A stretch of DNA of 64,000 bases, from contig NC_092352.1 of the NCBI RefSeq assembly GCF_963676685.1, forward strand, positions 43,152,001-43,216,000, read 5' to 3'. Positions 7,986-51,800 of this stretch are shown in pieces (positions within the stretch are counted from its first letter, which is position 1; each line of letters opens with the position of its first letter). Source of the stretch: Mytilus edulis. Its lineage: Eukaryota. Under the pieces are notes generated by a model. That model made no database searches. It was not told the DNA's origin and saw nothing but the letters and a program-made list of their open reading frames with translations. Made by a program: the position numbers and the translations under genes.

Positions 7986-8427
7986 CAATAGATTTTAATT
8001 TCAATTTCATTAAAACAAGTCCTCACTAAATGCGAGTGGATAGAGGGAGATGTTTTAATCAAATTGAATGGATCTGACAGATATTCAAATTGCAAGTCGA
8101 TCAAATTAGACCCAAGGTCTTCTGGTTCGTATTTTAATACGTCAAAATTAAGCTTGGTCTAAAACAATAATTTTTGAATGACTAATTCTAGAAATCAAAT
8201 ATTAACCATAGTAAATAATAATTATTATGCAGAACAACTAGCAATACTAATATAACTTGATGTTTTGCTAAATGCCTCTTGGGGTAGGGAAGTTGTTTCA
8301 TTGAAGAGTCCGAGTCTGAGTCCCCAAAATATTATTTTACTCACAGGAAGCTCGCATGCGGTATACAGTGATGATCAAACTTAAACAAATTAAAAAATTA
8401 ACGAATATCAACATTTAATTTCAGGTT

Positions 8428-18575: not shown

Positions 18576-21500
18576 TTATTTTTTCTTTCCAATTGGAACC
18601 TGTGGCCCACCTTGTATACCACCTGGAAGTATACCTCCGACCTGACCAGGTACACCACCAATGGCACCAGGTATACCACCAATAGCACCAGGAATACCTC
18701 CCTGAATAGCCCCTGGGACAACACCTGGAATCGTGCCAATAGTTTGTGGTTGTGTTCCAGGGCTGGCTTGATTACAAGCAATCTGTGTACACGACGCCTG
18801 AAATAAAAAACGAAATATTAATAAACATAAACACTTGTAGGACTAGGTCTATATGTAGCGTATCTCTAAGACACCGATCATTCATTTTGTTTGGGTATGA
18901 GGGTGGTTTTTATTTTAAATCATGGTTAGATTTAAAATTATTTCTTTGGAAAGGCCAATTTGGTTCAGAAGAGAAGTGAACAAAATAGTTTGTTTCCATT
19001 GAAAATTAGGTAAATAAAAAATAAGTTCAATATATAGTTTTAAAAAGTTTATTTTTTTGAAAAAATAGGGGTTTTTTTTATTTCAAAGAAGAAATAAAAG
19101 TGTTTGTCCAGGGAAAACAAACATTCCCCCTTTATAAAAAATGCATGACTTTTACCCATGTCTCCATGTTTTTTGGAGTAATAACTTCAATAGAATTTGA
19201 AAATAAAAATGGCTTTGCTCATTGTTGAAGGCCGTACGTGATCTATAGTTGTTAATTTCTGTGTCATTTTGGTCTCTTGTGGAGAGTTGTCTCATTGGCA
19301 ATCAAACCACATCTTCTTTTTCTATAATAACTCTTTAACACAAGATAGCACTTCCCCTTTAAATTTATATATACTATGTTTTTGGTTGAAAGCTTAAAAG
19401 CTTTGCTGCAATCATGTTAAAAAATTACTAAAAAAAAAAAAAAAATCATTCTTAGACAAAAAAAATATTAAAGAATTTTGAAATGAAATTTTAATACATG
19501 TATATGTATAGCATTTCGTTTGAGATTTCTAAGTTGTTACACTATCATTGCCAAGTCTGTACTTTTGACCTGACAAAATGATTGATTTATTATGAACCTA
19601 CCTGTCCGTTTTGTGTATTACAAGTACATCTATTACCGCAGGTGTCGATCTGTTTTGTTTGTCCAACTTGTATAAACTGATTCTGGGCCCTGCAGCCTGT
19701 TAAAAATATAGGAACATTGGTTCAAATTGATAATTTCATAAATCATTAGAATGAATATATCACTTTTCGTATTTCTTCAGAAAAGTGTTATTATATTCTA
19801 TGTTCAAGAAGTCTTAAATCTTATGTGAGAAGAAAGAAGAAGAACATGTAGAAGTATTTCAATTGCATCGTAATCATTAGATAATACATATAAAAAATGA
19901 AATTTTAAAAATTCTTTTTCAATATAAATGAGAGAATGTCAACCGAGACCGTAAGATTCGTGTCCACATAATATTTATGAAATAAATACACTTGAAGATA
20001 TAGTATTTACGTCAATAGTACCGGCAAAAAATGGCATACAGAAGGCAACATACAGTTCTTCACCATTTTTATTTAATTTGACATAACAGTTGTTCTTAAC
20101 AATTCAAAATATTTATAACAATTGTGATATTCACATAAACTGTGGCATTATATTTTTCTTCAATGGAATAAATTCAGCTTATCCACTTCTACGACGTAAA
20201 ATTGATCAACAATTCATTGTTTTTGGTTTTATAAATATTATAAAAAAGGGGCAAAAAATACCAGAGGGACATTCAAACTCATAAATCGAAAATAAACTGA
20301 CCACGCTATGACTAAAAAAGAAAAAGACAAACAGACAAGCAAAAGTACACAAAACACAGCATAGAAAAATAAATACTAGTAAGCAAAACGAACTCCACCA
20401 AAAACTGGCGGTGATCTCAGGTGCTCCTAAAGGGTACGCAGATCCTGCTCCACATGTGGAACCCGTCGTGTTGATCATAAATCTGACTTACCAGGAATAC
20501 ATTGACATGGGAGGACTGGAATCCATGTAGGACATATATAAGGCAGACCCACGTTACTTCTGTAAACACATTGTTGTCCAATTCCACATCCTCTGTAATA
20601 TAACAATACATTATATAACTATATTTATTTAATTTTCGTTTCTTTCGTAGTCATTTTGTTTAGTTTTCAATGATAGTCTTCATCCGAAAAATGCAGTCCA
20701 TCCCCGTAATAGATCGCTCCTTCAAAGAGTAATGGTAAATCAGCGGAATATAACAACTGAATTATTCGGGTTATGATACATGTAATCTTGTTTGTTTTGG
20801 CATTGATTTGAAGGCCCCCAGTCCTGTCACAATTATTTCCTCTTAAATTATCAGAAAAAAATGGTAAATAATATTAACTTCCTCCTGACAAAAATAATTA
20901 TAAAATTGTAAAAGGTACTACTGTTTGACAATAATTAATAATAAACTATTATGACTAAACTACAATTTACTGGAATAAACAAACCATGTCTTATATCTTT
21001 TTCTACTAGTTCTTTTGAATATTTTTTTTGGAAGGAACAGCAGAAAACTATTTTTTTTAATGAAGATTCTAACATTTTCTATTAATTTAAATTACACTAA
21101 GAATATATTAGCCTTGAAAAAAACATCTTAGATATTGTGGCAATTCTTATTGCTGTTGTAATTCTATTTATGTATCAACGGAGATGTTGAAAACATCTAA
21201 GGGTCAAAATACTATTTTGTATGTGTATTGATGACAGAATTAAACACAAATAGGTGCATACAGAACCTTGGATTTAAAAAAAAAATAAAGTTATATAAAG
21301 TGTTATCGTTTTCATAAAGAAGGGAAAAAATGATCATAAGAAAAGTTTGGAGAGGACGTAGTCCTCAAAACAGTCATAAAATCAATTAAAAGAAAAAATA
21401 ATTTTACTAGGGAAACTTGAATCGTTAATTTCTTTTTCAAACAGTTTCAGTTTCGCGTTATCCTATTGGCTTTTATGTTGCAAAAATAACAAATTTGTAC

Positions 21501-21934
21501 ATCTTATAACCAACAAGTATCATGAAAAAAAGACGGAATTAGTTTACTTTTACAGGACTACAATGATAGGTTACGTACCTTACGTGACAACTGTTTGGAT
21601 TACCAACACTTTGTTGAATAAACTGTTGATTTTGTGCAAAATTATTTACTCCATTAAATCCTTGCTGTCCAAATTGTCCTGGAATTTGATTCTGAAATCC
21701 ATTTTGGCCTATTATTCCTTGCTGGCCAAATTGATTAGGAAACTGTCCTTGTTGACCAAATTGCTGGCCAGGAAATTGTCCTTGCTGTCCAAATTGCTGG
21801 TTTTGAAATTGACCTTGTTGTCCAAATTGTTGACCTGGAAATTGTCCTTGTTGGCCTGGAAACTGTCCTTGTTGTCCAAATTGCTGTGCATTTAAGCCAC
21901 AAACGCAATAGACAAAAACGAAAATGGGTATCAT
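18576..21934 (-). CDS. Gene A: secreted Gln/Gly/Phe-rich protein with 12-Cys (FOLN-like + pacifastin/VWC-like) module and Gly/Ile/Pro-rich tail, ~257 aa
   Basis: Exons 21934-21579, 20592-20492, 19696-19602 and 18797-18576; all GT-AG, phases 2/1/0, open frame. Signal peptide, then (GQQGQFP)n, then SCHVRGCGIGQQCVYRSNVGLPYICPTWIPVLPCQCIPGCRAQNQFIQVGQTKQIDTCGNRCTCNTQNGQASCTQIAC, then a (GGIPGAI)n tail ending IGKKK. TATATAA at 21986-21980. Confidence 0.9.
19215..19325 (+). repeat. Representative copy of a dispersed short interspersed repeat
   Basis: cattgttgaaggccgtacg...gagttgtctcattggcaatc.taccacatcttct. Other copies at ~1105, 6130, 12945(-), 24380, 44790(-), 52505, 56355(-), 56655(-) and 62075. 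Confidence 0.7.
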
Positions 21935-31905: not shown

Positions 31906-34221
31906 ATGGCAAAACTTTTTCTTTTACCAATAATTGCCAGTGTTTTAGGACTTTGTTCGGGAACATTTTTCTTTCATCGTCATCAGTACCAGTATCGGAA
32001 GCAATATCATATGGGAACCAGTGTCTACACGCCTCCAGCAAGATTTTATCCGGGTCGTCTGCCACCAACTTTTATACACACTCGTATTTTGATACCGTAT
32101 GATTCTCCTAGTTTTGAAGAAAGAAATCCTGTCCCTACAGCTATATTTCCAGTCGGTACCGTGTATCCATCTTCCTATCGCCAGTTTCCAAATCCACTTG
32201 CAAATCTGAATACGTATGATCTACCACCATGGAAACCAACAGCTCCAGTTTTCAATAATGGCATTGCAGGTCTAGATGTAGATAATGTTATTCCGCAATT
32301 TAAACCAACTCTTAATCAAGATCCACAGATACCAACAAGAGAATGGATAGCAGAAGTTCCAATTATTCAACAAGTTCCAACTATTCAACAAATTCCAACT
32401 ATTCAACAAGTTCCAACTGTTCCAGACACTAACAATGACAATAACTTTCTTCCTGATGTTCCATCATTTGTAGTACCTGTTGTAGTACCAGACCCCCCAC
32501 AAGTTCCTATCTTTCCCGGAGCTGACATCAATAATAACCAGAAGGGAGACGTCTACATCGAACAGCAAACAACAACTCAGCTTCCACCAATTATTGTAGA
32601 AAGACCAAAGTCATGTCAGGAAACGTAAGATTCTTCCTTTTTTTCTTTATATTTTTTTTATTGCTGAAACATTTATATTACATGTCTACACATTTTTTTC
32701 ATCAGTTATAAATAAATTCTACACTAAGGAAAATATCACTTACACTAGTTTCAGAAGGCTTCGCTATTTATTTGTATCAACCGCTGGTTTAGTGTGGCTG
32801 CGTTTGTACTTTGGGTTTCCGAATGCACCATCTGCTTAGTATCTTGAATTAACATACATATTAATTTATCATTAAATCTTATTAAAAATAATGTATGAGT
32901 ACTTTAACAAAAAGTTGCAGCTTCTACGCCTAGATTCACACCAGATTTACCGTTTAGGATTATATTGTCCTTGGATTTGATGCTTACAAGTGTTTCTATG
33001 TGCTTAGTTTTAAGATGATATTACGAAAATTATTTTATAATTTCATTGCAGTACTATCAAACGTACGCAGTTTTATTCAATAGTTGTTTGACTTTTTATT
33101 TTTATAATTTCAGAGGGTGCGGCCTTGGAAGTGAATGTGTATATAATAACAGTTATATCTGCCCTAAGGATGTCAAAGATATTCCATGTCGCTGCCAAAG
33201 AGGTAAACGCATTATACAGTAAAATTCTTCCTTATTTTAAAAAACTGAAACGTTTGGTTATATGCAAGAATCTTTACTAAAAATTACAATTGAGCGGCAG
33301 CATTGCGTTGAAAAGTCATTAACTGACAATATATCTTCCAATAGGAACAAATATATGTAACACTAGGAGTATTTAAACGGAACTTAATATTTGAAATAAG
33401 TTTAAAATTACATTTTTAAAATCTACGAAATTGCACATATCGACAAAAAGAAGATTTTATATTGTAGTAGTTTATTTTGTGTATATGATATAATAAATTT
33501 GGAATTTTGTAAAATCATTCCTTTTGTGGTTATTTTGCTGCAGCTTTAAATGTTGGTTTTTCTTATATTTTGTTTTTTACTTTCAGGTTGTCGCTTACAG
33601 CATACATTCATACCACTCGGAGTTACTACGATTATTGACCCATGTGGAAATATGTGTTCATGCAACAGTTTATTTGGAGGGGTAAGTTTCCATTTTGAAT
33701 GGTTTTCATTTACCGAAATTTGCACTCGTGAGAGGTCGCTGTTGTCTTAACGGTGGTTACTGCTATTGGTATTTACGCAAAACGCGCGGTTCGTCCAAAA
33801 AAGACTCATCAGTCACGCTCGAATTAAAAAAAGTTAAAAAGGCCAAATAGAGTACTGCATGGATTATAATAAGCCGACCTTTCATAAGTCAAAAAATAAA
33901 TAAAATAACAAAACAAAACTGTCTTGACTTATTGGTATCTATCGTTCATAAGTCTTAATATTTTTTCTGTTTGTTTTTTTTACTATATCTATTACAATTT
34001 ATAAATATTTCAATAATTGTTTTCAGGCTAATTGCACAGATATTCCATGTAATCCAAAACAACCATCTATTAACAACCCTACAACTGGCTTAATAATAGA
34101 ACCTGTACCGACTGGACCATCAGATGCTGGTCCCCTGCGCGGAGATTTCCCTGGATATTTACAACGTATGGAATATCCTCTACCAATACCAGGTCAACAA
34201 GGAGGAAATTTCCCTGTTTAA
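31906..34221 (+). CDS. Gene B: secreted Pro-rich protein with 12-Cys module and RGD motif, ~365 aa
   Basis: Exons 31906-32624, 33114-33202, 33587-33681 and 34027-34221; GT-AG, phases 2/1/0. Signal peptide, Tyr/His-rich start, Pro-rich region with (QQ[VI]PTI) repeats, then SCQETGCGLGSECVYNNSYICPKDVKDIPCRCQRGCRLQHTFIPLGVTTIIDPCGNMCSCNSLFGGANCTDIPC, then DAGPLRGDFP. TATAAATA at 31848-31855. Confidence 0.9.
33770..33850 (-). repeat. Degenerate retrozyme/hammerhead remnant in intron 3 of gene B
   Basis: tacgcaaaacgcgcggttcgtccaaaaaagactcatcagtcacgctc matches the 630-675 motif. CTGATGA is kept on the minus strand, but GAAA and the cleavage triplet are mutated. Confidence 0.6.
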
Positions 34222-35409
34222 GAACCCGGATTAGAGCCGAATTTTCCAGAAGAAACCTTTGTTCCGCCAATTCCATTTTAAACTGAAAACAAATTACCAG
34301 GATTTAAAGGAAATCAAGATTTACCAATAGATTCTAAAATCAGACTTTCAGAAATGAATCTTGTATCAGATAAGTCAAAAACAGATTCCATGTTATTTCC
34401 AGTGGCTAGTTAAGAAAACACTGATGAAAATCCAAACTATGATCTATGTAATCCATTATTTATAGTATTCGTGATCTTATTTATTTATTTCTCGTTCAAC
34501 TTACCATTGATCGAAATGTGCTTTCGTAACTGTCTCTTATTTTATATTATGTTTTACATTAAATCTGTTTTTTCTTTTTACTTAATGGTTTTGATATTTT
34601 CTTTTATTTACTTATTGTAACTAGCCCGATAAAATATTTATTTCGCAGTTCATTTCTTTTAGACAATCTAATTCCCCAAAAACTGACCTGCGCTTTCTCA
34701 ACAACGTTTAACAGTGTGGTGTAGAACGATTGGGACAACTAAAAACATAATTGCGGAGAACTTAATTAGCTTAAACTAAAAATATGGTAAATTCTGTGTT
34801 AAGAAGGGTCTTGAATTCAGTTGACAGCTTCAGCCATACTTATTCATGTTGACCCTTTTCTACTGGACCAAATCACAACTTCACCTTAAAGTTCCAGTGA
34901 CAATATTTTTGTACAATGTTATTTGACCCTTGCTTGCTAGTTGATGTATGAACATGAAGAGATCAATTCGGAAAGGTTTGAAAAACATTGAAAGTAATAG
35001 TGCACTGTCCACACTAAGGCCTATTTTTGCTGATAAAAAAAATTACACCACGTTCCTAGAATACAGTAACACAATTTCGAACTACCTGCTACATGTTTAT
35101 TAGAGTTCATATTGCGTTTGTATAGCAGTCTGTGTTGTCATCTACATGTATATAGGTGTGCAGGTCTTTGTTGTAATGTGTGTGTTGCTTTTTTTTTGCA
35201 CACAAGTTGTTTCCCCTTTATCGCGAAACGGACACACTGAGCTACTTTAGTACACACAAACTTTTATATATACATTGAGTAATATGCATATTAACTGCAG
35301 ATCGGTTAGAATGCAAATAAACTGTTCATCAATTACGCTGTAAATTAAGTATACATTTGCTAAGATGCATTTCAACTCTACACCTACGAAAAGGAATACA
35401 GGTAAAGAT

Positions 35410-36430
35410 ATATATACTCAGTTAATATATATCTTCACAAATGTACAAATTGTATGCATCTTTAAAAATGTACAAATTGTATGCATCTTTAAAAATGTAC
35501 AGCTAATAGGTATCTCAACAGATGTACAGTTAATATGCATCTCAACAGATGTACAGTTAATATGCATCTCAACAGATGTACAGTTATTACGCACCACAAC
35601 AGATGTACAGTTAATATGCATCTCAGCAGATGTACAGTTAATATGCATCTCAACAGATGTACAGTTAATATGCATCTCAACAGATGTACAGTTAATATGC
35701 ATCTCAACATCTCAACAGATTTACAGTTAATATGCATCTCAACAGATATACAGTTAATATTCATGTCAACAGATGTACAGCTAATAAGCATCTCAACAGA
35801 TGTACAGTAAATATGCATCTCAACATATGTACAGTTAATATGCATCTCAGCAGATGTACAGTTAATATGCATTTCATCAGATGTACAGTTAATATGCATT
35901 TCAGCAGATGTACAGTTAATATGCATCTCAACAGATATACAGTTATTATTCATCTCAACAGATATACAGCTAATAAGCATCTCAACAGATGTACAGTAAA
36001 TATGCATCTCAACAGATATACAGTTAAAATTCATCTCAACAGATGTACAGTTAATATGCATCTCAGCAGATGTACAGTTAATACGCACCCCAACAGATGT
36101 ATAGTTTGTAAGCACCTCACCAAATGTACAGATTATAAGCATCTCACAAAATGCACAGTTTGTAAGCATCTAACCAAATGTACAGTTTGTAAGCATCTCA
36201 CAAAATGTACAGTTTGTAAGCATCTAACCAAATGTACAGTTTGTAAGCACCTCACCAAATGTACAGTTTATAAGCATCCCATAAAATGTTCAGCTTATAA
36301 GCATCTCATAAAATGTACAGTTTATAAGCAACAGTTTATAAGCATCTCATAAAATGTACAGTTTATAAGCAACAATTTATAAGCATCTCATAAAATGTAC
36401 AGTTTATATGGATCTCAACAGATGTACAGC
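35410..36430. repeat. 27-bp minisatellite
   Basis: Consensus cagatgtacagttaatatgcatctcaa, drifting to aaatgtacagtttgtaagcatctcac at the right end. Confidence 0.95.
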
Positions 36431-36825
36431 AAAATTGCCTATATTAAAGTATATGGTTTACCTGTTAATCAGATTATGATGATTGTTATAAAATTAATAT
36501 CAATAATGTCTAGTCTCTGGACGAGAATTGCTATACATGTAGTCTTGGTTTGTGTTTTGTTTGCTGTATTTGTTGTTGCTACTGATTTTAGCAAGTAAAT
36601 GCTTTTTTGCCGGGCAAGTAAACATCAGTACGTTGATGGTTTTCTGTAAAGAAAAAAGTAAGGAACTGGTACTTTGTCCAGATTGCGGGGTTGTTCAATC
36701 ATGACTATTAGTGATTTAAAAAGAAATATACTTATATTCATATTCTAAAAATGAAATTACCCCTCTTTGAATCAGTTCCGAACATAGTGCAGCTTTTTCT
36801 ATTTGATGTTGCCTATCTTGTTTAT

Positions 36826-37590
36826 GTTTAGATGAGCGAGAGCGAGAGTAGATGAGTGAGAGTGAGAGTAGATAAGCGAGAGTGAGAGTAGATAAGTGAG
36901 AGAGTAGATGAGCGAGAGCGAGACTATACGATGTGTGAGGGCGAGAGTAGATAAGTGAGAGTGAGAGTAGATAAGTGAGAGAGTAGATGAGCGAGAGCGA
37001 GACTATACGATGTGTGAGGGCGAGAGTAGATGAGTGAGAGTGAGAGTAGATAAGTGAGAGAGTAGATGAGCGAGAGCGAGAGTAGATGAGTGAGAGTGAG
37101 AGTAGATAAGTGAGAGTGAGAGTAGATAAGTGAGAGAGTAGATGAGCGAGAGCGAGACTATACGATGTGTGAGGGCGAGAGTAGATAAGTGAGAGAGTAG
37201 ATGAGCGAGAGCGAGACTATACGATGTGTGAGGGCGAGAGTAGATGAGTGAGAGTGAGAGTAGATAAGTGAGAGAGTAGATGAGCGAGAGCGAGAGTAGA
37301 TGAGTGAGAGTGAGAGTAGATAAGTGAGAGTGAGAGTAGATAAGTGAGAGAGTAGATGAGCGAGAGCGAGACTATACGATGTGTGAGGGCGAGAGTAGAT
37401 AAGTGAGAGAGTAGATGAGCGAGAGCGAGACTAAACGATGTGTGAGGGCGAGAGTAGATGAGTGAGAGTGAGAGTAGATAAGTGAGAAAGTAGATGAACG
37501 AGAGCAAGACTATACGATGTGTGAGGGCGAGAGTAGATGAGTGAGAGTGAGAGTAGATAAGTGAGAGCGAGAGGCGAGAGTAGACGACGA
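36826..37590. repeat. Purine-rich compound micro/minisatellite
   Basis: Iterated gagagtagat(g/a)agtga / gagcgagagcgagactatacgatgtgtgagggc blocks. Confidence 0.95.
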
Positions 37591-40500
37591 AAAGAGGGAA
37601 TATATGTGCAAGTGAGAGGGAGAGTGTGTGCGATAACGTGCATTGGTAAGAGAGGAGACGTCTAAACATCAACACAACAATGTTAGATATGTAAATTTGC
37701 TTTCGGAAATTTTAGGTTCTTCCCTCATCGGGATATATATATGAACATTTGTCGAAAAAGATGAACATTAATTTACAGGTTTATCTGTTATATACTTAAT
37801 TTAGTCCTGGTATCTATGATGAGTTTATTTACAGTCTACATACATTTTACTACATTTTACTAAATGTACACATGTGTATGTTTTACATTTTTTTTCGAAA
37901 AAAATATCCACCGTCAGAGTAAATAAAAAGCAAACACAATGCAAATCGAAAATTAATACACACTGAAATTGAAAGCAAAACACAATAAGATTTAAAATAA
38001 AACATTGAGATTTCGAGTTTGAACATATCAAATTAACATACTATTAGGTTTCGTTTGGACATGCAAAGTAAATTAAAGTTACCTATAACGACCAATACGG
38101 CAAGTACGGTTGAAATTTGTGAAATATACATCTGGTTATAGGTAACCTTCTGTATCAAGACCTCACAAAAACATTTCATGAAAAAAACACGTTTAAAGTC
38201 ATATGGAACTAGTTTCTGGCTATTATATTTTTTAAGGAAACTATTACCGGACTGAAAAGAATAACATGAACATGGGTGAAATATATTTGCTAGCAAAATT
38301 ATTATTTCAATTTTTTTTCTTCAAATTAAACATATATTTCATTCATTTTTTTTATTTCGGATGTTGTCATTAATTAAGACATACACTCTGGTGAAAAAAT
38401 CCACATTTTACGTTTTGTGTCCAAACATAAGTTTACTATGAAATATTGAAAGCAGTCATTTTATTGTATTTAACTCATTATCTGTCTGGTAAATTTCATA
38501 AATCAAATCTGTTTAAAACCAGACTACTGTTCATTACCGTCCTCAGTGTATAGGACGTTACATGTTTAGGTCTTGTTGTCTTCTTACCAAATAAAAAACA
38601 TAATAACACTCTAAAGTGTAAGGGGAATTGGTTACGTATAGCGAGTATCAAATGAACTTGAAGTGTGTGTGATTTTTTGGTAAAAAAAAAAGGTCACGTA
38701 TCTCACACAATGTCCATATGGTTTTATGTAACCGTATGTGCAAAGACAAACGCATCTAAAGCATATTTTGATATTATTGTATTTATTCATTACCTTTATT
38801 TCTATGGTACTTTAACTTTACATTATTTTAAATTTATGAGATATTTTTTTCCCCTTTTTTTTCAAAATGTTGCTTGAATGGTTTCATGATACCAATGAAT
38901 CAAAATTAAAAAAAGGAAATATAGAAATTTTATTTCTTACCATACTTTTTTCATGAACAAATTATATTTGACATTTAAAGATCTTTTTTAATGATTTAAC
39001 AGGAAACCTGCATGATGTACTGAATTAGAGCATAACCATCTGTGTAAATTGTGTCATTTTCAGTTTGTTTCTTTCATTTTTACGTCGGTTTGTATTTTCC
39101 AACTCTCAGTGTGTGCTTTTTTTTAACTTGATTTTTTCTTCTTTTCAAAATCTTAAAGTGTAAAATGCTTAAGTTTCACTAACTGTTAAAGCATTTAAAC
39201 CAAGCATAGTTTAGACATGAACAGATCACAATTATAGTTTTCTCGCCCGTTCTGTGAGTGCCTGTCGATTTCACGGGTCTGTATAAACTGAAGATGAATA
39301 AAACTGTACAAAAATTGCGTCAAATCTTAAGATGACAAAAAAAATCAAATATGTGTATACATAATCAATCACGATATGTAATTAATAGGTAATTAATGTT
39401 TTGACAGAAATGAGCGATATTAGTACATGTACGTTTACATTGGCGCCACATTTGCAACACGTTCTGGGGGGAAATGTCCGAAATAAAAATGTCCAACGTA
39501 ACAAAAAAAGATAGCGGCATTTTTTTATTATTGTTTTTGGCATTACATGACATCTTTGTGAATTGTTGACGCGTGCAGGACCTTAAATGACTTATGTCCA
39601 AAAACACAAACTTCATTGATATATAATTGATACTAAAATAATCATTAATGAAATATGATTATTAATGACCGGAAGGAAAAAGATGGTCATGCAGTGTAAG
39701 GCTTGCTTACGTCAATGGACAGTCTTTGTTATCTAAGTACCCTGTGTGATCTTTTATCCGTTTAGTCCCGGAACTTCTGTTTTAGAAAGCAACACTATAT
39801 GTGACTAAGAATTCCTAAAAAAAATTACACTAAAATAGATTCCTTTGAAATATTACGACCTGAACCTATTTTAAGTTTTATTTATGAATGCGTTCATTGC
39901 TACAAAAATAAGAGAAGAAAAAAACAATCGTTATATATTTAATTGAAAGAGCCAATTCATAATATCTACAAAGAACTTGCACAATAGTATAAGTCTAATG
40001 TCATAAGCATATTAGATATACTAATTCGTTATTTTAATGATGCAAAGCTTATAGTTTCAAATCCTTCGCTTAAACTTTCAGTACTACAACCGATAACAAT
40101 GTGTTTCTTTCAGGAAGAAAGTTAGATTATATGGGACAAATTTGACCATCATATTTTAAAATTGTTCGTAATTTGAAAATTCCATTTTGAGTGTTACATA
40201 AAGATTATCACAGAAAGAACATCAGAACACTCGATCTTTTTTCCTCACAAATGCGAAGAACTAGACATAAAGCTTGTCAAAAATTGTTTTTTAAACATTC
40301 ATGAACAAATCACTTTTTGGCAGCCACTTATGTAGATCCCAGCGAATTCTATAAAACACTGATATTTCATCTACGTCCCTTGGTCTTTGATGGGTAGTTG
40401 TTTCCATGGCAGTTCAACTGCATCTCTCTTTTTTAATTTTGAACTCCGTGCGTCAAATTGTGTTTCTTTACACATGCTCTAGTCTTGATCAAAGGTTAGA

Positions 40501-41940
40501 AAAGCCAAATGTGTGTTACTGTACAGGACAAAAGGCCTAAGCGGATCAAACTAAAGTACTAAATAGAACAATTAAATTCGTCTTAATCAAAATGCTAAAA
40601 TCATGTAAAGAAGCTAAATAGCTGAACTCATCGAAATAAAACTACATAATCATCTAAATCGGTAAAGCCGACCAAATCTTCTGAATGTCAAAATCGTTAA
40701 AAAAAAAAAAAAAAAAGCCGACCAAACTACTATAAATAGAACTGCCATATTTGTCTTAACAGAGCTGCTAAAATGTTCAAATAGAAAGCAGACAAATATA
40801 TATAAAGTCTCCTGATTATATTTCTATTTTCTTACAGATAATGACATCATACGTTTTAACGATAAGCCACCAGTGGTGATATTGTACATTTAAAAAATAT
40901 ATTTTCAATAAGATCATAAAATCAATTGACCTTGAGCTGCCTTTTTATGACAAAGAGTGACTGCGCAAAGATTTGTTTTCACTAAATAATTATGACATCG
41001 ATGTGATTATTTTTAATTTGTTTTGAAATTTATTTACATCTGTCTATCCTAAATGTACTTTGTATCAATCATATGCGCGAATTATTTTGTAGTTTTTATT
41101 TATTGCCCGTTTTGAGTACCTATATAACTTCTGCTTTAAGATATCGATTCCGAAAATCATTAAATAAAAACCACAATAAAACATCCAAGGACTCGTCAGT
41201 TATGTTTTGAACGATTAGCTAGATGACCAATCACTGGACCTTATGACTTTTGTTATACCTACAAGTATATGACCGGTAACAACAGAGCTTGTTTCTGATT
41301 GTCGGTTTTATTGCTAACTTTGACAGTTTAGTTGTCCCCTAGAGGAAACCATCAAAGGGAACTAGATACACACAGGTGCTAAAACAGGGAAAATGTCATA
41401 AAATTACTCATCAAATGTAGAAGATATTCATGCCATTTGGTTTGCGCGACGTCATTCTTGTTCGTTCTCATAATAGTTATATTTTTTCTAAAACAAAGCT
41501 GTTGATAAAAGTGAGCCATCAATTTTATAATTGTTCTTTGGGATTTTTTAATTGGAACTACTTACTTTTGTCATACGTGTTATATTTCAATTATTTTTGA
41601 GTTATTACAACAGTAATATTTAAAAGTCGAATTGCCGCTTTTTCTTGAAGGGAATAAGTTCACACATTTATCAATCAAAATCGGTCATTCATTGCCGAGA
41701 CATTGTGCGATTATTCCTGCACCAATCCTCACATAAACAATACGCATTGACACTTCGGTTACCAAATATCAACAGTGATGGGGGACGCTCACTATCATAA
41801 CAAACAAAAATGAACAGGTATTCGACCAGACGATGTGTAAAGCTATTGTTTTTAAATTTGAAATGCTGTGTGGATATTATGACTAAATAATACAAGTCAG
41901 AAAAGAATATTCAGTTGTATGAGAAGGAGTTAACTTCACT

Positions 41941-44900
41941 ATGAAATTTTATTTTGTTTCGTGTTTTGTTTTTGTGTTTTTATCAGTGTTGTGTGATGGT
42001 AAAGGACGGAATGAAATCCAGAGGAAAAAACGAGTCAAACATATTAGTACAAAAGTATATAGACCTTCAAAGGATATGTATGCGAAATATCTTAACATGA
42101 ATCCACCTAGGTTTCCACCTACGATTATCCATACACGATTACGTGTACCGTTTGACGGGCCACCACCAAAGTACAAATGGAAACCAAAATCCTTACACGT
42201 GAATAGGGATAAAATGCGGGGTAAAATGTTGAACCCTGTGGGTAGAAATACAAAAAAGGTCAAATGGTATCCGTCTACAAATCCAGTTTTAACCGGTAAA
42301 AAAATTGGCATAGGAAATCCAACGAAACATGTAAAGAGGAAAACATACCGAACAACAAAACAATTCAATCCGTCAACTAAATCAGTATATAGATACACTG
42401 CTGCTCCAAGAAAACCTCATCCAATCAGAGCAAGGATTACTTATCCAGCAAAGGTAATGCCAATTCGTACAACAACAACAAAACCACCAAGATCAAAGTC
42501 AATAAATCTGTTTAATCCTATAAGTGACTATGTTCTTTCTACAGAACCTACAACAACAAAAGTATCTGCTTTTATTCCTGTGCCTATTTTGAATGAGGTT
42601 ATCATTAATTTTGCAAAACCAGTGTCGCAAACTACTACTATGAAACCTATTCCAATTGCCAAGAACAAACCAGTACATTCAGTATTTGAAAGTACAACAC
42701 CNNNNNNNNNNNNNNNNNNNNNNNNNNNNNNNNNNNNNNNNNNNNNNNNNNNNNNNNNNNNNNNNNNNNNNNNNNNNNNNNNNNNNNNNNNNNNNNNNNN
42801 NTACCACAACGCCAATAACTAACACTACCTCGACGCAGACCTTAACAACAGAAAAAGTCTTGAATAACTCTACATCTCCCTCAAATAGTTCTACAGAATT
42901 GTTCAACATTAATCCGGAAGCGACTACGAATGAAACAACACAAGAACTATTTTCTACAACTCGTATCGCTTCCAGTACTCCGACAACGACTTGTTTCGAA
43001 ATGATTACGCCTCCAACGACAAATATTTCGACAACGAATGATTCTGAAATAATTACGACTTCTACGATCGCGGCATCTACAAAAAAAACCAACTGATTCC
43101 GAAATAAGTAAAACTTCAACAATAGCCACGACGACAACTAGTTCAACAACGACTGATTCCGAAATAATTACCACTCCAACGATAGCTCCAATGAAAAATA
43201 CTTCGACAACGAATGATTCCGAAATGATTACGACTCCAACAAAAGCCACAACGACAACTATGCCAGCAAAGACTGATTCCGAAATTATTACCACTCCAAT
43301 GATAGCTTCAACTACAAATACTTCAATAAGGAACGATTCCGAAACTAGTACGACTCCAACCACAGTGGCTACGACAACAACCCTTAGGGAGCCAACTACA
43401 GAGGTGAAAATTACTTTTCCAGAACACATGATTGGAAGGTTTCCATCTTCTACAATGAAACCTGCGGTCAGGGTACCACACAATTGCATCACTATGTAAG
43501 TAACTTTTGCTTCGAGAAAAAAATCATGGCCTATCTTAAATAGGCAATAAATAAAAAACAATCATGACTGTTTACAAATCTTTAGATGTTTCGGAATACT
43601 AGGGATTACCTTTTTGGAGTTTTTCAATACTCTCTAATTTCGTACTTTATTTGGTATCTATGTTGAATTTATTGTTCATATAGATGTATCTATATGTCTG
43701 AAGCAGGATGAAAGGTATCGTATGTCAAAAGTGTTGCAACTATTACGAATTCACTTTTTATTTCATATAGTAATACATTAGTTTTCATTATGTTTGTTCT
43801 GTCTGTGTATTTGCTATAACCAAACTTTTTGTTTTTGTTTCGCAAATTAAGAATTCTTATTTATAAAACATTTTCGAAACTACTTTTGGGTCCGATTATG
43901 ATGATAATTTTATGTTTAATGCTATACTCACAAATGTGTACAGTTTTTATGGTTATAATGACATATGTTTATAATCAGCCATTACTGAGAAAATCATAAT
44001 TATGTCAGTACAATATCGAAATTAAGTGTCATTTATTCCTATATAGATTTGTCATATATATAATTTTTTTCAGGGCAGAAATTCATATTTGTCTTTACGC
44101 GATGATAATTATAAATTATAGATAAATTAAATGACAATGCAAGTAACTGTAAGCAGTTCTGTGTTTAATGGTAAACAATCATTCAATTTGGACAGTATAA
44201 TTCTTTAAACAAATGTGTTTTTATATCAAATAATAGGAGAATTTCCAATAGGTTAAACACTTTTTACCTAAGACTGTATATTTATGATAATTTTTTAACC
44301 ACAAATATCGTCCAAATTACAGCTACATTCGATTTCTTTCTACTCAAAAAGTATAACGATATTATTGTAAAAAATTAATCATCAATACTATATATATTCA
44401 GTAAATTTTTATTTCAAAGAAAACATATACTTTATACAGCCAGAACGATATCCTAAAAGAAAATATAAAGTTGAAGATGGTTATGTATTTTTTATAGTCT
44501 ATATATAGGTCTTAAAATTAACATGTATTTATCATTTTCCAATTTTCTATTTAAGGGGGTGTCCGCAAGGCAGAGTGTGTTTATCAGATCAAAACGATAT
44601 TTGTTTTAAAGGCGAAAAAGCAGGTTCATGTTTTTTGCAAACCTGGTAAGTATAATTGGTTGGCTTTTTTGTTGTTTGATCTTCTGTAAACAAATCTTTA
44701 TCAAAGTATAAATAATGTGGTTGATTGGTTGTTGGTTGCTTAGCGTCCAGTGGCAAATATTTCATGTATAATCATGGAGATACATAAATAAGACGATGTG
44801 ATATGTTTGCCAATGAGACAACTCTCCTTCCAAGTCACAATGTATAAAAAAAAAATATAACAATTATAAGATGAAGTATGGTCTTCAACACGGAACCTTG

Positions 44901-47143
44901 ACTCACCCCAAACAGCAAGCTATAAAGGGCCAACATGTCACGTTTTCATTCTTTCACCGTAAACATTTGTCTCGAAAATTCAACGAGAGCTGGCACAAAC
45001 CCAAATGTAGAACGTATGTGTTGGAATGTTCCTTTAATATCTTTCGTCTCTCTTATATTTTTATGAACATTCAAATAATGGAGATCGTAAAATTTTAATA
45101 ACACATCTTTTTAATGAAATTACATGTATCACCTTATGACATGAAAACGAATAAAATTTAGGGTTTTAATCTACTAAATTTATTTTTATAGGATGTAAGC
45201 ATGAGAATATGTTAATTGAATTAGGACAGCCTGTTGTTATGGACCGATGTGGCAATTTGTGTTACTGTGGCTCAGGCGGATTGGTAAGTACATAAACACA
45301 TTATTTTAACATGATATAACTTCTTACTAAGCAAGAAATGTCAAAAACCTACTTTTGGGAAATAAATTAAAACACACTGATTTTTTAACCACATCATTGT
45401 TTTAAAAATAAGACAAATCCATTTATTTATAAAATTGCAATGCATAAGTTAATACATTTGTAAATGTTTTAATATGGTATAGAGCGATTTCAACAATAAA
45501 AATCAAACATTCTGGGTTTTTTAAAATAAATTTGATATGATAATTATTCCAAACAAATGAATTGATATATGATTTGTAAATGCCAGTTACGAATGTCTTA
45601 TCAATGAATACCTGGTCCATTCTACCAAACCTCGGTAATTTCGTGTACTTGCGATGAAAAGGAAAATTTACATTATCAAGATCAATGCTTACACTTCAAC
45701 TACAATATGCGATTAATAGGACTTCGTTTTTTTTTTTAACGTTTTAATTAAACCGATGATTGAGCGGGTAAGAATACCAATCCAAATTACATCCATTTAG
45801 TGGAAGCTAGATTTATATTTTAAATAAGGAAACTAAACTTGAATTATAAGCCATAGGTCTGTACTTCCTTTTACTAAGTACTCAGAGTACAAAACTTGTG
45901 TTCGAAACCCCAAATCCAGTATTTTGATTTTTTGATTTCTGAGTTTAAGTGCGATAGCCATAATCTTAATTGTTATGACCTCGAGAGCTAGTATGCGTAT
46001 ACTATCTCCATATTTTCGTGTTTAATATGAAAAGTATGAAACATATAAAATCACAAAAACACTGAACTCGATGAAAATTCAAAACTGAAAATCCCTTATC
46101 AAATGGCAATTTCAAAAGATAAAACACGTCAAACAAATTGACAACAACTGGCATATTCCTGACTTGGTACAGGCATTTTCTTATGCGCTAAACCTCTCAC
46201 TTGTATGACAGTCACATCAAATTTCATCGCCCTATAAATAGAAACCTGAATATTCTAGCATCGCAAAGTGTTTGCATTTAAGTTAAAACTTTAATGTCTC
46301 CTTTATAAGTTAATACTTGAATGTCTACAGTTTTCAGTTATTTGGATTAAACCTCTTTGTACATACATAACTTGTATAACACTACATCATCAAAGTTCTG
46401 AATAATATTGGAGGGTAATAAAGTTTTGTAACACTTTTATGAACGTATAAATAGAAAGTACTTCTATTTAAGTAATGATAAACAACATATGAAACGTATG
46501 ACACACGTCAAAATTGAATGACATTTGACAAAAACCTTTGATCTAAAAAAAATATTAATGGTCTAGCCCATATGGGGTGAAAAGTAGAATAACAAAAATA
46601 TCGAACTGCAAGGAAAATTCAAATCGCGAAAATTAATGGCAAATTCTAAAGCTGAAACACACAAAACGAATGGAAAACAACTGTCGTATTCATGGCTTGG
46701 TACAGGCATTTCCTTATTTATAAAATTAATTATGGTCATGGTTTACTTTTCTTCTTTTTCCTGACCAGTTTGTTTGAGTGTTGATATTTGTTTCACTTTA
46801 TGTGTTGCGTAAGTTTATTAAGAATAAGTCAGTACCTTTTATTATTCTTTTTCAGACTGCATGTACGAAAATACCATGTGAAAAGAGCAGATATGTAATA
46901 ACAACACCAAACCCTTTTAAACCGGTCGAGTTTAAACCGGATGTTAAGGATAGAGGACCGACAAGGGGAGACTCGCCTTATTTCTATGTTGACAATACGA
47001 AGTCAAAGTCAATAAAAGTTCATGGATTACATTTCCCGGATCAATTGTTGGCGTGGTTGTCGCCGTTTTCGTCAGAATTCAGGGAAAGTCTTCCTTCTTC
47101 TGGAATAAAGGCAATTTCGATTGAAAATCTATTCAAAACTTGA
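41941..47143 (+). CDS. Gene C: secreted Lys/Arg-rich plus Thr-rich mucin-like protein with 12-Cys module and RGDS motif (two frameshifts and a gap in this assembly; possible pseudogene)
   Basis: Exons 41941-43495 (100-N gap; +1 shift at A-run 43081-43088), 44556-44645 (+1 shift at T-run 44631-44636), 45192-45283 and 46856-47143. Signal peptide, RKKR, basic domain, 20-aa DSEIITTPT repeats, then NCITMGCPQGRVCLSDQNDICFKGEKAGSC[FC]KPGCKHENMLIELGQPVVMDRCGNLCYCGSGGLTACTKIPC, then DRGPTRGDSP. Confidence 0.8.
42702..42801. other. Assembly gap (100 N) inside the Thr-rich repeat of gene C exon 1
   Basis: Run of exactly 100 N, a typical placeholder of unknown true size. Confidence 0.99.
43040..43390 (+). 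repeat. 60-bp (20-aa) coding tandem repeat, mucin-like
   Basis: gattc[ct]gaa (DSE) at 43040, 43095, 43155, 43215, 43275 and 43335. Confidence 0.85.
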
Positions 47144-48576
47144 AACCTCAGTGTGAAAAAAAAAGTTGGAAAACAGATTAAGTTTCAGATTCAAGTTTAT
47201 ATGGTTTATCTACCGCTTTAAAACCATCGTTCGCTTGCGAAGCAGTGTTTTGTAAAGATAGACCTGATGTAAGCGGATGGGCTGCTGATCTCTATCTTTG
47301 TAACGTTTTAATGTTCGTGGCTCTATGAAGGAGAACCATGTGTTGCTTTCTGTCTTGTTAAACGTTTACTTGTGTAATTCTCGTTTCATAAAATGAAGTT
47401 ATTTATTGTTTGAACAAATTAGCAGGATAATTTAATTTCATTGTTGACAAGCAGATGACAATAGTCCCATTTTATTATCGTTGTATAAAATATCAATAAA
47501 ATTCTTATTATTTAGTGTATATGATTATGTTGTTTATCATGAACATTGAAAATTAAATGACACTCAGCTTTACCGCATCATACAATTCAAAATATACCCC
47601 TCCTATTGAAATATAACCAATAATACAGTGGATTCAGCGAAAGGCTTGAAAGCCTATATAATATCTTATCATAAAGTCCATACTCATTATCGTCATCATA
47701 GCTATTGTACTGCGATCTTTTTTATAGCCTTTGTCATGTGCTCAAAATAGTTACTCTAAAATTATTGTATTGTTTGTAATATTACTGCATGTTCATACAA
47801 ACATTATATTGTTGTTTAATTCGATAAAGAGTAAATATAGATATGATTTACTAGTGTCCAATCCTTTTATACTTTTAGTCAATAAAATGCTAAACCCTAA
47901 TAAGAATTTGGTTTGCTTTTTTTGGTCGTGTAGACAACTACTAGTATATGTGCCCTACTAGATATTCTAATCGACGAGACTCGTGTTGTCATTTTATTAA
48001 AAATAATTCAAGGAACCAAATAGATTTTAATAAGATGGCACGATATTAAAAGTCTGTTTCAAAAGAAATAAAAAGGAGCAATAACAGAACCAAAAACTGG
48101 ATAGAAAACAGGACTATGTCACATTGGGGTCACAATGACAAAAATTGTAACTGTAACAACAGATTAAAAATCTCAAAAATTCTTCATTAAATGAAAAGAA
48201 CTTGTTCATAAATTCCAAAGCACTACAATACATGTACCGGTAATAACCAGTTATGCATGTTCTTATAATAATAAAAAAAAGAACAAGAAGTAAACAAAGC
48301 AATAAAATATTTGTATTTTCATAATACATTAACACCATATCAGACGTGTTCCCGAAAGTGATTAATGTACAACTATAAAACATGCATAATTTTACAAACG
48401 TACAATCAAGAAATATTAGCATTGAATAAAAAGCAAACCAATAGACATTACACACCATACTAATAAAAATACCAATACATAAACAAAGAAACAAAACAAA
48501 ACAAAACAAATCAATTGATAAATATAACGAATAAAAAAAATGTAGTTGTAGTTTAAAAGTGTGATTTCTTATTTGT

Positions 48577-48927
48577 GTAACTGGCATTTACAGATCATAT
48601 GTCAATTCATTTGTTTGGAATAATTATCATATCAAATGTATTTTTTTTAAAACCAAGAATGTTTGATTTTTATTGTTGAAATCGCTCTATACCATATTAA
48701 AACATTTACAAATGAATCGACTTATGCATTGCAATTTTATAAATAAATGGATTTGTCTTATTTTTAAAACAATGATGTGGTTAAAAATGTGTTTTTAATT
48801 TATTTCCCTGAAGTAGGATTTTGACATTTCTTGCTTAGTAAGAAGTTATATCATATTAAAATAATTTGTTTATGTACTTACCAATCCGCCTGAGCCACAG
48901 TAACACAAATTGCCACATCGGTCCATA
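48577..48927 (-). pseudogene. Inverted partial duplicate of gene C exon 3 and the start of intron 3
   Basis: Reverse complement of ~45238-45590: MDRCGNLCYCGSGGL|gtaagt plus ~300 bp of intron, with few differences. Confidence 0.9.
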
Positions 48928-49671: not shown

Positions 49672-51800
49672 GATTATTATTGTTATTATTACTCATTATC
49701 AAGGTCATCTTGACTTCACATGGTGAAAGAACGTCGCTACTCATTATCAAGGTCAGACTGACTTCACATGGTGATAGAATGTCTCTACTCATTATCAAGG
49801 TCAGAGTGACTTCACATGGTGATAGAACGTCGCTACTCATTATAAAGCTCAGATTGTCTTTCATGGTGATAGAATGTCACTACTTATTAACAAGGTCAGA
49901 TTGACTATACATGGTGATAGAACGTCGCTACTCATTATAAAGCTCAGATTGTCTTTCATGGTGATAGAATGCCACTACTTATTAACAAGGTCAGATTGAC
50001 TATACATGGTGATAGAACGTCGCTACTCATTATAAAGCTCAGCTTGTCTTTCATGGTGATAGAATGTCACTACTTATTATCAAGGTCAGATTGACTATAC
50101 ATGGTGATAGAACGTCGCTACTCATTATAAAGCTCAGATTGTCTTTCATGGTGATAGAATGTCACTACTTATTATCAAGGTCAGATTGACTATACATGGT
50201 GATAGAACGTCGCTACTCATTATAAAGCTCAGATTGTCTTTCATGGTGATAGAATGTCACTACTTATTATCAAGGTCAGATTGACTTCACATGGTGATAG
50301 AATGTCACTACTTATTATCAAGGTCAGATTGGCTATACATGGTGATAGAACGTCGCTACTCATTATGAAGCTCAGATTGTATTTCATGGTGATAGATTGT
50401 CACTACTTATTATCAAGGTCAGATTGACTATACATGGTGATAGAATGTCGCTACTCATTGCAAGGTCAGATTGACTTCAAATGGTGATAGAATGTCTCTA
50501 CTCATTATCATGGTCAGATTGACTTCAAATGGTGATAGAATGTCGCTACTCATTATCAAGGTCAGATTGGCTTCACATGGTGATAGAATGATGCTACTAA
50601 TTATCAAGGTCAGATTGGCTTTCATGGTGATAGAACGTTGCTACTCATTATGAAGCTCAGATTATATTTCATGGTGATAGATTGTCACTACTAACTATCA
50701 AGGTCACATTGACTTCACATGGTGATAGAATGTCGATACTCATTGCAAGGTCAGATAGACTTCAAATGGTGATAGAATGTCGCTACTCATTATCAAGGTC
50801 AGATTGGCTTCACATGGTGATAGAATGTCCCTACTAATTATCAAGGTCAGATTGGCTTTCATGGTGATAGACTGATGCTACTTATTATCAAGGTCAGATT
50901 GACTATACATGTTGATAGAACGTTGCTTCTCCTTATCAATATCAGATTGACGTCACATGGTGATAGAATGTCGCTACTTATTGCAAGGTCAGATTGATTT
51001 CAAATGGTGATAGAATGCCGCTACTCATTATCAAGGTCAGATTGGCTTCCCATGGTAATAGAATGTCGCTACTAATTATCAAGGTCAGATTGGATTTCAT
51101 GGTGATAGACTGATGCTACTTATTATCAAGGTCAGATTGACTATACATGGTGATAGAACATTGCTTCTCCTTATCAAGGTCAGAGTGACTTCACATGGTG
51201 ATAGAATGTCGCTATTTATTATCAAGGTCAGACTGGCTTTACATGGTGATAGAATATCGCTACTCATTGCAAGTACAGATTGACTTCAAATAGTGATAGA
51301 ATGTCGCTACTCATTATCAAGGTCAGATTGGCTTGACATGGTGATAGAATATCGCTACTTATTATCAAGGTTAGATTGACTTCAAATGGTGATAGTATGT
51401 CGCCTTCTTATTATCAAGGTCAGATTGGCTTTCATGGTGATACACTTATGCTACTAATTATCAAGGTCAGATTGGCTTCCATGGTGATAGACTGTTGCTA
51501 CTTATTATGAAGCTCAGATTGGCTTTCATGGTGATAGATTGTTGCTACTTATTATCAAGGTCAGATTGGCTTTCATGGTGATAGAATGTCGCTACTAGTT
51601 ATCAAGGTCAGATTGGCTTTCATGGTAATAGACTGATGCTACTTATTATCAAGGTCAGTTTGACTATACATGGTGACAGAATGTTGCTTCTCATTATCAA
51701 GGTCAGAGTGACTTCACATGGTGAACGAACGTCATTTCTCATTATTTAAATCAGATTTACCTCAAATCGTGATAGAATGTCGCTACTCATTATTTAGTAT
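49400..51800. repeat. 47/48-bp tandem repeat array (~45 units)
   Basis: Consensus ctcattatcaaggtcagattgacttcacatggtgatagaatgtcgcta, with alternating 47+48-bp variants at ~49840-50280. Confidence 0.95.
49575..49690 (+). mobile_element. Probable 5'-truncated LINE 3' end with (ATT)n tail inserted into the 48-bp array
   Basis: gagggcctcaa...ttgagttaccctct-ttaaataaag-(att)n: self-complementary gaggg/ccctc, AATAAA and a microsatellite tail. It interrupts a satellite unit. Confidence 0.55.

What the first reader, a model, noticed from the sequence alone, without database searches (positions are those of the whole stretch)
34123..46978. Positionally conserved RGD motif in paralogues B and C
Seen: DAGPLRGDFP in B (RGD at 34138-34146) and DRGPTRGDSP in C (RGD at 46964-46972), 29 and 28 residues after the last Cys, in tails that otherwise barely align. 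Established: RGD is the integrin-recognition tripeptide and RGDSP is the fibronectin context. Inference: selection has kept a cell-adhesion site, so B and C may link cells (e.g. epithelium or haemocytes) to a secreted matrix; A and D lack it.
Basis: partly seen in the sequence, partly recalled or inferred. Interest (0 to 1): 0.7.

Follow-up and report, generated by a model that had tools for sequence, protein, structure and literature searches.

The report
Mussel secreted proteins share extended RGD
Two neighbouring mussel genes for uncharacterised, predicted secreted proteins keep an extended RGD cell-adhesion sequence that also recurs in unrelated predicted extracellular proteins of the same genome, and it likely lets cells grip these secretions through integrin receptors.

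Summary
Confirmed. The window is Mytilus (B equals a named M. edulis protein). A-D are four tandem paralogues of an unnamed bivalve family: predicted signal peptide, low-complexity or mucin-like arm, 12-cysteine module, variable tail. RGD lies at the stated bases. D-x-G-P-x-R-G-D-x-P is kept in B of 5 of 5 Mytilus species, in two unnamed tails 43-51% identical to B, and in C of 4 of 4 species; 4 of the 7 shared codons differ between B and C, which points to selection on the protein. The genome holds 7 matches to G-P-x-R-G-D-x-P: 5 lie in exons of predicted extracellular proteins (B, C, an unrelated secreted-type protein, an EGF-repeat protein twice), against 0-1 of 9 for RGE/RAD/RGN controls. 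An oyster family member carries the motif on the other side of the module. Against: the scallop and oyster proteins nearest B lack it in the tail; tissue and binding are untested. Unexplained: C's 95-residue last exon is identical in four species while the rest is 77-92% identical (exon 3: 90-100%). Best reading: likely integrin ligands working like Drosophila tenectin, with a previously unnoted extended RGD context.

The parts
34123..34152 (+). B extended RGD motif (D-A-G-P-L-R-G-D-F-P); RGD at 34138-34146
   Evidence: invariant in 5 of 5 Mytilus orthologues
46949..46978 (+). C extended RGD motif (D-R-G-P-T-R-G-D-S-P); RGD at 46964-46972
   Evidence: invariant in 4 of 4 species
31906..34221 (+). 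Gene B, exons 31906-32624, 33114-33202, 33587-33681, 34027-34221; 365 aa: predicted signal peptide, His/Tyr/Arg-rich start, Pro-rich arm, 12-Cys module, RGD tail
   Evidence: GT-AG introns; letter-for-letter match to P0001, named M. edulis XP_071130071.1
34222..34413 (+). Tail extension translated in B orthologues (holds two further conserved islands) but cut off here by in-frame stops at 34219 and 34279
32050..32109 (+). B N-terminal motif shared with C (P-x-R-x-P-P-T-x-I-H-T-R ... P-x-D-x-P)
   Evidence: p 0.0005 against shuffles; not found in A or D
41941..47143 (+). Gene C, exons 41941-43495, 44556-44645, 45192-45283, 46856-47143; about 1,340-1,400 aa in database orthologues: predicted signal peptide, basic Pro-rich start, Thr/Ser/Pro mucin-like arm with a second RGD, 12-Cys module, RGD tail
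   Evidence: exon 2-3 and 3-4 junctions present in RNA contigs of run X16
42103..42162 (+). C N-terminal motif shared with B
42702..42801 (.). Assembly gap standing for about 760-790 codons of C exon 1, including the second RGD
46856..47143 (+). C last exon: 95 of 95 residues identical in M. edulis, M. galloprovincialis, M. trossulus and M. coruscus records
   Evidence: three synonymous third-position changes in RNA contig of X16
18576..21934 (-). Gene A (no RGD), exons 21579-21934, 20492-20592, 19602-19696, 18576-18797; Gln/Gly-rich arm, 12-Cys module, Gly/Pro/Ile-rich tail
   Evidence: counterpart P0019
53700..56090 (+). Gene D (no RGD), exons 53700-54037, 54542-54630, 54950-55044, 55815-56090; 12-Cys module, Lys-rich tail
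   Evidence: counterpart P0018

Best explanation
B and C are predicted secreted matrix proteins whose conserved G-P-x-R-G-D-x-P motif, in a predicted disordered tail about 29 residues past a disulfide-rich module, likely binds an RGD-class integrin and so would anchor the animal's own cells to the secreted matrix. Shown: gene structure, the motif, its conservation in mussels and its recurrence in other extracellular-type proteins. Predicted: secretion, a folded module and an unstructured, exposed tail. Inferred: the 12-Cys module and low-complexity or O-glycosylated arms let A-D assemble into a matrix or mucous coat, with A and D as structural members and B and C (two RGDs) adding cell-attachment points; the flanking G-P and x-P residues would shape the loop for one mussel integrin alpha/beta pair.
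For: Motif invariant in B of 5 of 5 Mytilus species and C of 4 of 4. Kept in two unnamed B-type tails only 45 of 105 and 45 of 89 identical to B, one at the same 29-residue offset; 7 of the 28 invariant columns among 87 gap-free ones (6 tails) plus F are the motif. B and C use different codons at 4 of 7 shared residues, including both Arg codon boxes. G-P-x-R-G-D-x-P: 7 genome matches, 5 in exons of predicted extracellular proteins: B, C, a chromosome-C7 protein with its own signal-peptide exon, and twice in a Ca-binding-EGF plus laminin-EGF repeat gene on C13; RGE, RAD and RGN variants gave 9 matches, none in a recognisable exon, one possibly in a short exon (one-sided Fisher p 0.005, or 0.027 without B and C). 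Oyster family members P0036 and P0062 carry D-S-G-P-L-R-G-D-L before the module (expected 0.0003 in the 13 other members). In the model of the B orthologue P0005 the module has pLDDT about 86-96 and RGD (residue 328) lies in a segment under 50. The genome has 2 integrin-alpha matches over the Pfam cut-off. Oyster integrins bind RGD peptide by SPR and RGD blocks haemocyte phagocytosis and encapsulation (PMC7390872, passages).
Against: The scallop (P0021) and oyster (P0022) proteins that group with B (support only 86/86) lack the tail motif; the scallop reads Q-G-A at the aligned site. Only 3 of 17 module-bearing family members examined have D-x-G-P-x-R-G-D (several of those models end at or before the last exon). 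Raw genome counts of the RGD patterns are close to their reversed controls (7 v 6, 7 v 4): the signal is where hits lie, judged by eye, on small numbers, and falls to p 0.095 if B and C are left out and control L054 is counted as coding. C's whole last exon is invariant, so its RGD is not singled out there. B tails have other equally conserved islands. Tissue, cell type and the RGD class of the mussel integrins were not determined.
Confidence: 0.58

Rival explanations
1. The motif binds integrins but as a soluble modulator (decoy or signal) of haemocytes, larval cells or of other organisms' cells in mucus, not as an anchor in a solid matrix.
For: RGD peptides block oyster haemocyte phagocytosis and encapsulation (PMC7390872); C is mucin-like (54% Pro/Thr/Ser over residues 441-1225); the module weakly resembles pacifastin and vWF-type modules.
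Against: The same motif sits in a large EGF-repeat protein of matrix type; low-complexity arms suggest structural assembly (inference); unlike disintegrins (recalled), RGD is outside the disulfide scaffold.
Confidence: 0.14
2. G-P-x-R-G-D-x-P is a short linear motif for a non-integrin partner, for example a monobasic processing site or a docking site for a secretory-pathway or matrix protein.
For: The conserved unit is longer than RGD and recurs before or after Cys modules in unrelated proteins; it is absent from the scallop and oyster B-like tails although an oyster has RGD-binding integrins.
Against: Asp and Gly after Arg are invariant in all coding instances and RGE/RAD/RGN variants were not found in recognisable exons, which fits integrin recognition (established: RGE and RAD are inactive controls; recalled).
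Confidence: 0.16
3. The RGD is incidental: B and C inherited a tail from a common ancestor, and it is kept because the whole tail (above all in C) is constrained for another reason.
For: C last exon 95 of 95 identical in four species; B and C share an N-terminal motif and weak tail similarity, so common descent is likely.
Against: Between B and C and between B and its distant tails the motif is an island in sequence 43-51% identical or less; it recurs in three unrelated settings.
Confidence: 0.12

Closest known systems
Drosophila tenectin (PMC3410870, passages read)
   Same: Secreted protein with mucin-like Pro/Thr/Ser domains and vWC-like Cys modules, proposed there to be a PS2-integrin ligand through RGD; C has the same kinds of parts.
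   Different: Tenectin is 2,788 aa with several vWC-like domains and RGD inside them; here one 12-Cys module with RGD in the tail outside it. No sequence homology was tested or found. In the hindgut lumen tenectin appears to act without signalling, a caution for function by analogy.
von Willebrand factor / gel-forming mucin E (TILa) and C modules, fibronectin type I module
   Same: The second half of the module aligns weakly with them: FnI 2cg6 Z 3.8, rmsd 2.3, 45 residues; VWF C4 6fwn Z 2.3; Pfam TILa in 4 of 21 members, best E 0.0075.
   Different: All matches are under Z 5 and under Pfam cut-offs where shown; single module with an extra six-Cys first half; in VWF C4 the RGD is inside the domain (recalled).
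Vertebrate RGD integrin ligands with RGD in flexible segments (vitronectin, osteopontin, fibrinogen; recalled)
   Same: RGD in an exposed, disordered stretch next to a folded or low-complexity body.
   Different: No shared domains; the flanking G-P-x...x-P context shared by unrelated mussel proteins is not one I recall from these.
Pacifastin protease inhibitors
   Same: C-x-x-C-x-C...C-T-x-x-x-C spacing; Pfam Pacifastin_I in 3 of 21 members, best E 0.0009; Foldseek E 0.24.
   Different: Below the cut-off for C; embedded in a 12-Cys module; no inhibitory activity tested.

Membership tests
RGD integrin ligand | R-G-D tripeptide in an extracellular protein | tested here: met
   hydrophobic N-terminus read as signal peptide by eye, no predictor run
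RGD integrin ligand | RGD exposed in a loop or disordered segment | tested here: met
   predicted only: pLDDT under 50 for 309-352 of P0005, RGD at 328
RGD integrin ligand | RGD conserved in orthologues | tested here: inconclusive
   met in Mytilus (5 of 5, 4 of 4) and two unnamed distant tails; not met in the scallop and oyster proteins nearest B, whose orthology has support 86/86 only
RGD integrin ligand | An RGD-class integrin exists in the organism | tested here: inconclusive
   2 integrin-alpha matches over cut-off, class not determined; oyster RGD binding and a cited Mytilus trossulus report in PMC7390872
RGD integrin ligand | Cation-dependent binding lost on RGE | not testable with these tools
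   needs bench assay
VWC / TILa domain proteins | Pfam match at the curated cut-off | tested here: not met
   TILa at most 18 bits and VWC2L_C 20.2 bits against cut-off 27
VWC / TILa domain proteins | FnI-like beta-sheet fold | tested here: inconclusive
   best Z 3.8-4.4, no Foldseek match at E 0.001
Pacifastin inhibitors | Pfam match at cut-off, six-Cys stand-alone module | tested here: not met
   13 bits against 27.9 for C; module has 12 Cys
Secreted mucin-like protein (gene C) | Long Pro/Thr/Ser-rich domain | tested here: met
   54% P/T/S, 34% Thr over residues 441-1225 of P0012
Secreted mucin-like protein (gene C) | O-glycosylation and polymer formation | not testable with these tools
   needs biochemistry
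Described Mytilus shell-matrix or byssal proteins | Peptides present in published shell or byssus proteomes | tested here: inconclusive
   no hits in supplements of 6 papers, two of which held under 8,000 characters; the foot-gland paper was not held

The most novel reading that the evidence does not exclude
G-P-x-R-G-D-(F/I/L/S)-P is the recognition consensus of a bivalve RGD integrin, reached or reused independently by unrelated secreted proteins (this 12-Cys family in mussels and oysters, a Cys-cluster Asn/Gln/Trp-rich protein, an EGF-repeat matrix protein). It would give a sequence rule for finding the largely unknown native integrin ligands of molluscs, and C's invariant 95-residue tail would be a larger receptor-binding surface around it.
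Probability: 0.4. Interest if true: 0.72.

Novelty: new variant of a known kind. Interest (0 to 1): 0.52.

Why it matters
Bivalve cells respond to RGD peptides and oyster integrins bind them (PMC7390872), but the animals' own RGD ligands are poorly known (my knowledge; fibronectin and vitronectin are vertebrate or chordate proteins, recalled). This gives four concrete candidate genes in one mussel genome and a shared extended motif that can be tested with one peptide pair. It also defines an unnamed bivalve-wide family (mussel, oyster, pearl oyster, scallop, freshwater mussel) with a 12-Cys module outside Pfam cut-offs, and could supply native coating sequences for mollusc cell culture.

Tried and rejected
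Recent duplication or gene conversion between B and C as the source of the shared motif: rejected, codons differ and no B-C DNA match appeared in the self-comparison of the C region. A conserved RNA under C's last exon: no Rfam match at E 1 in 46700-47600. Metagenome scan for distant C last exons: one locus, L005, a chance match in GC-rich unrelated DNA; so C is untested outside Mytilus. Further paralogues: none in 100 kb fetched around the window or by two own-genome protein searches. Laying four DNA runs on 46740-47440 showed only 2 substitutions and 1 insertion, but runs were chosen as best holders, so this says nothing on diversity. RNA runs with C pieces are environmental metatranscriptomes (marine, plankton, fish gut): a hint of larval expression at most, not used as evidence. 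ESM Atlas: best 0.78, VWC-type clusters, a lead only; the C7 protein could not be searched. The module tree does not join B with C (C is on a long branch), and B-C module identity (18 of 59 non-Cys) is lower than A-B (25 of 61) or B-D (21 of 61), so B-C sisterhood rests on the N-terminal motif and tail only. P0013 and P0016 in C's cluster are unrelated products of a chimeric model (P0014) and were dropped; P0014 and P0017 lack the last exon. No complex was predicted: no full mussel integrin sequence was at hand. Four look-ups of earlier scan notes returned nothing.
Full report
1. Observation. Six-frame translation puts RGD at 34138 and 46964 on the + strand, in the last exons of genes B and C. 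With canonical GT-AG introns, 29 and 28 residues lie between the last Cys and the Arg. A and D have no RGD. A shuffled B or C tail holds RGD about 1% of the time.

2. What the genes are. B is letter for letter P0001, which its source names an uncharacterised Mytilus edulis protein. A (minus strand), B, C and D share a four-exon plan: a long first exon with a hydrophobic start (signal peptide by eye) and a low-complexity arm, two short exons and the start of the fourth making a 72-77-residue module with 12 Cys, then a tail. C is about 1,340-1,400 aa in database orthologues, with a mucin-like arm of 54% Pro/Thr/Ser; the 100-N gap hides about 760-790 codons, including a second RGD kept in 6 of 6 C records that span it. 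The window's C has single-base frameshifts in two homopolymer runs (about 43081-43088 and 44631-44636); an RNA contig lacks the extra base in exon 2 and joins exons 2-3 and 3-4, so C is spliced and transcribed. The module passes no Pfam cut-off where bits are shown; among 21 family members TILa matches 4 and pacifastin 3, weakly. AlphaFold folds it confidently; its second half aligns weakly with fibronectin type I and vWF/mucin modules (best Z 3.8-4.4, no Foldseek match at E 0.001). A profile search gave 32 proteins at E 0.001; named ones come from Saccostrea, Pinctada, Ylistrum, Argopecten and Sinanodonta (10 of the 32 were looked up). So this is an unnamed, bivalve-wide family of predicted secreted low-complexity proteins.

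3. Is the motif under selection? In B, D-A-G-P-L-R-G-D-F-P is invariant in 5 of 5 Mytilus species at 82-95% overall identity. More telling, two B-type last exons from unnamed records (P0030, P0042; organism not given) are only 45 of 105 and 45 of 89 identical to B's tail yet keep D-x-G-P-x-R-G-D-F-P, P0030 at the same 29-residue offset; all 15 listed members of the P0042 cluster (26 in all) keep it. The motif is one of about three conserved islands in the tail. In C it is kept in 4 of 4 species. Between B and C, 4 of the 7 shared residues use different codons, so the amino acids, not the DNA, are what is kept. B and C also share an N-terminal motif (p 0.0005) and weak tail similarity (p 0.002-0.009, matched by A versus B), which suggests common descent of these parts, although the module tree leaves C on a long separate branch.

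4. Results against. The scallop P0021 and oyster P0022, which group with B at support 86/86, lack the tail motif; P0021 has D-L-G-G-F-Q-G-A-F at the aligned site and P0022 has a plain RGD near its N-terminus. Only 3 of 17 module-bearing members examined hold D-x-G-P-x-R-G-D; some of the others are models cut before the tail. C could not be followed outside Mytilus.

5. The motif recurs elsewhere. Two Saccostrea family members (P0036, P0062) carry D-S-G-P-L-R-G-D-L 19 residues before the module, not after it; 0.0003 such motifs are expected in the 13 members other than A-D (the profile held the motif, a small bias). In the mussel genome, G-P-x-R-G-D-(F/I/L/M)-P has 4 matches (control 0) and G-P-x-R-G-D-x-P has 7 (control 4). 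Five lie in exons of predicted extracellular proteins: B; C; an unrelated gene at C7:42.97 Mb with a signal-peptide exon, a His/Tyr/Arg-rich start, a small Cys cluster, the motif and Asn/Gln/Trp-rich repeats (no Pfam match); and twice in a gene at C13:18.16-18.19 Mb made of Ca-binding EGF then laminin-type EGF exons (MEGF6-like by recalled architecture), once in the linker exon and once in the apparent last exon (splicing inferred from phase, not shown). Two lie in short or repeat-derived frames. The control variants RGE (1 match, in fact Ser), RAD (4) and RGN (4) gave none in a recognisable exon, L054 possibly a short one. One-sided Fisher p is 0.005 (5 of 7 v 0 of 9), 0.027 without B and C, and 0.095 in the least favourable count. 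These searches miss motifs split by introns and the coding calls are by eye.

6. An unexplained extra. C's last exon is 95 of 95 identical among M. edulis, M. galloprovincialis, M. trossulus and M. coruscus records, while edulis versus coruscus is 251 of 299 in the N-terminal part, 23 of 30 in exon 2 and 27 of 30 in exon 3 (Fisher p 9e-7 and 5e-5), and B's tail 91 of 120. Three differences in an RNA contig are all synonymous. No Rfam family matches. A three-residue site does not explain this; the whole tail may be a binding surface, or a DNA-level cause remains open.

7. Mechanism. Shown: structure, motif, conservation, recurrence, transcription of C. Predicted: secretion; folded module; RGD at residue 328 of the B orthologue in a segment with pLDDT under 50. 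Inferred: the proteins assemble in an extracellular matrix or mucous coat, and B and C present the motif on a flexible tether to an RGD-class integrin (0.58 as adhesive ligand, 0.14 as soluble modulator, 0.16 non-integrin motif, 0.12 incidental). The genome encodes integrin alpha chains (2 matches over cut-off). In oyster, an alpha chain of the RGD clade binds RGD peptide by SPR, 8.98% of haemocytes bind it, and it lowers phagocytosis and encapsulation (PMC7390872; 12 of 35 passages seen). Tissue is unknown.

8. Comparison and novelty. It works most like Drosophila tenectin, a secreted mucin-like protein with vWC-like modules proposed to bind PS2 integrin by RGD (PMC3410870, 9 passages seen; the primary tenectin paper was not held), but it is not shown to be a homologue, and it fails Pfam cut-offs for VWC, TILa and pacifastin. 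Ten full-text searches (listings and abstract starts only, plus one passage of PMC13608469) found no paper naming these proteins, their accessions or the motif; peptide searches in supplements of six shell or larval papers found nothing relevant. Subscription papers and many supplements (two held under 8,000 characters, one paper not held) were not visible and could list these proteins under other ids. RGD ligands are a known kind; the family and the shared extended context appear undescribed.

9. Verdict. Real, conserved and probably functional; new variant of a known kind; interest 0.52.

Noticed in passing
window 46856-47143: C last exon is 95 of 95 identical at protein level in four Mytilus species while the rest of the protein is far more variable; unexplained by RGD alone.
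   Followed up: partly
window 34219 and 34279: Two in-frame stops cut about 64 codons from B's tail relative to four other species and to four unnamed contigs; RGD is kept but two other conserved islands are lost. Allele or assembly error not resolved.
   Followed up: partly
L021 / G000:C7:42972835-42974614 (-): Unrelated two-exon predicted secreted protein: signal peptide, His/Tyr/Arg-rich start, six-Cys cluster (antistasin-like spacing, recalled; no Pfam match), D-N-G-P-S-R-G-D-I-P, Asn/Gln/Trp-rich repeats.
   Followed up: partly
L031-L034 / G000:C13:18168000-18194200 (+): EGF-repeat gene (Ca-binding EGF then laminin EGF; MEGF6-like by recall) with two G-P-x-R-G-D-(L/I)-P motifs, in the linker exon and the apparent last exon.
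   Followed up: partly
window 48577-48927 (-): Inverted 355-bp copy (94% identical) of the 3' half of C exon 3 and the following intron (45238-45590).
   Followed up: no
window 43081-43088 and 44631-44636: Single extra bases in homopolymer runs shift C's frame; an RNA contig lacks the exon-2 one, so likely assembly errors.
   Followed up: partly
window 8419-14346 (+): Carboxylesterase family gene (PF00135, E 5e-132) upstream of the cluster.
   Followed up: no
window 49690-51793, 35419-36430, 36829-37573: Tandem arrays: 47/48-bp unit x44, 27-bp unit x33, and a purine-rich 20/79/214-bp array between the paralogues.
   Followed up: no
P0014 (database model of C in M. galloprovincialis): Model fuses C exons 1-2 to an unrelated P-loop/death-domain-type protein, pulling unrelated sequences into C's cluster; probably a chimeric annotation.
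   Followed up: no
window 31963-32010 and family members P0020, P0021, P0036, L021: A short His/Tyr/Arg-rich stretch directly after the signal peptide recurs in B, several family members and the unrelated C7 protein; may mark a common secretory route or matrix.
   Followed up: no
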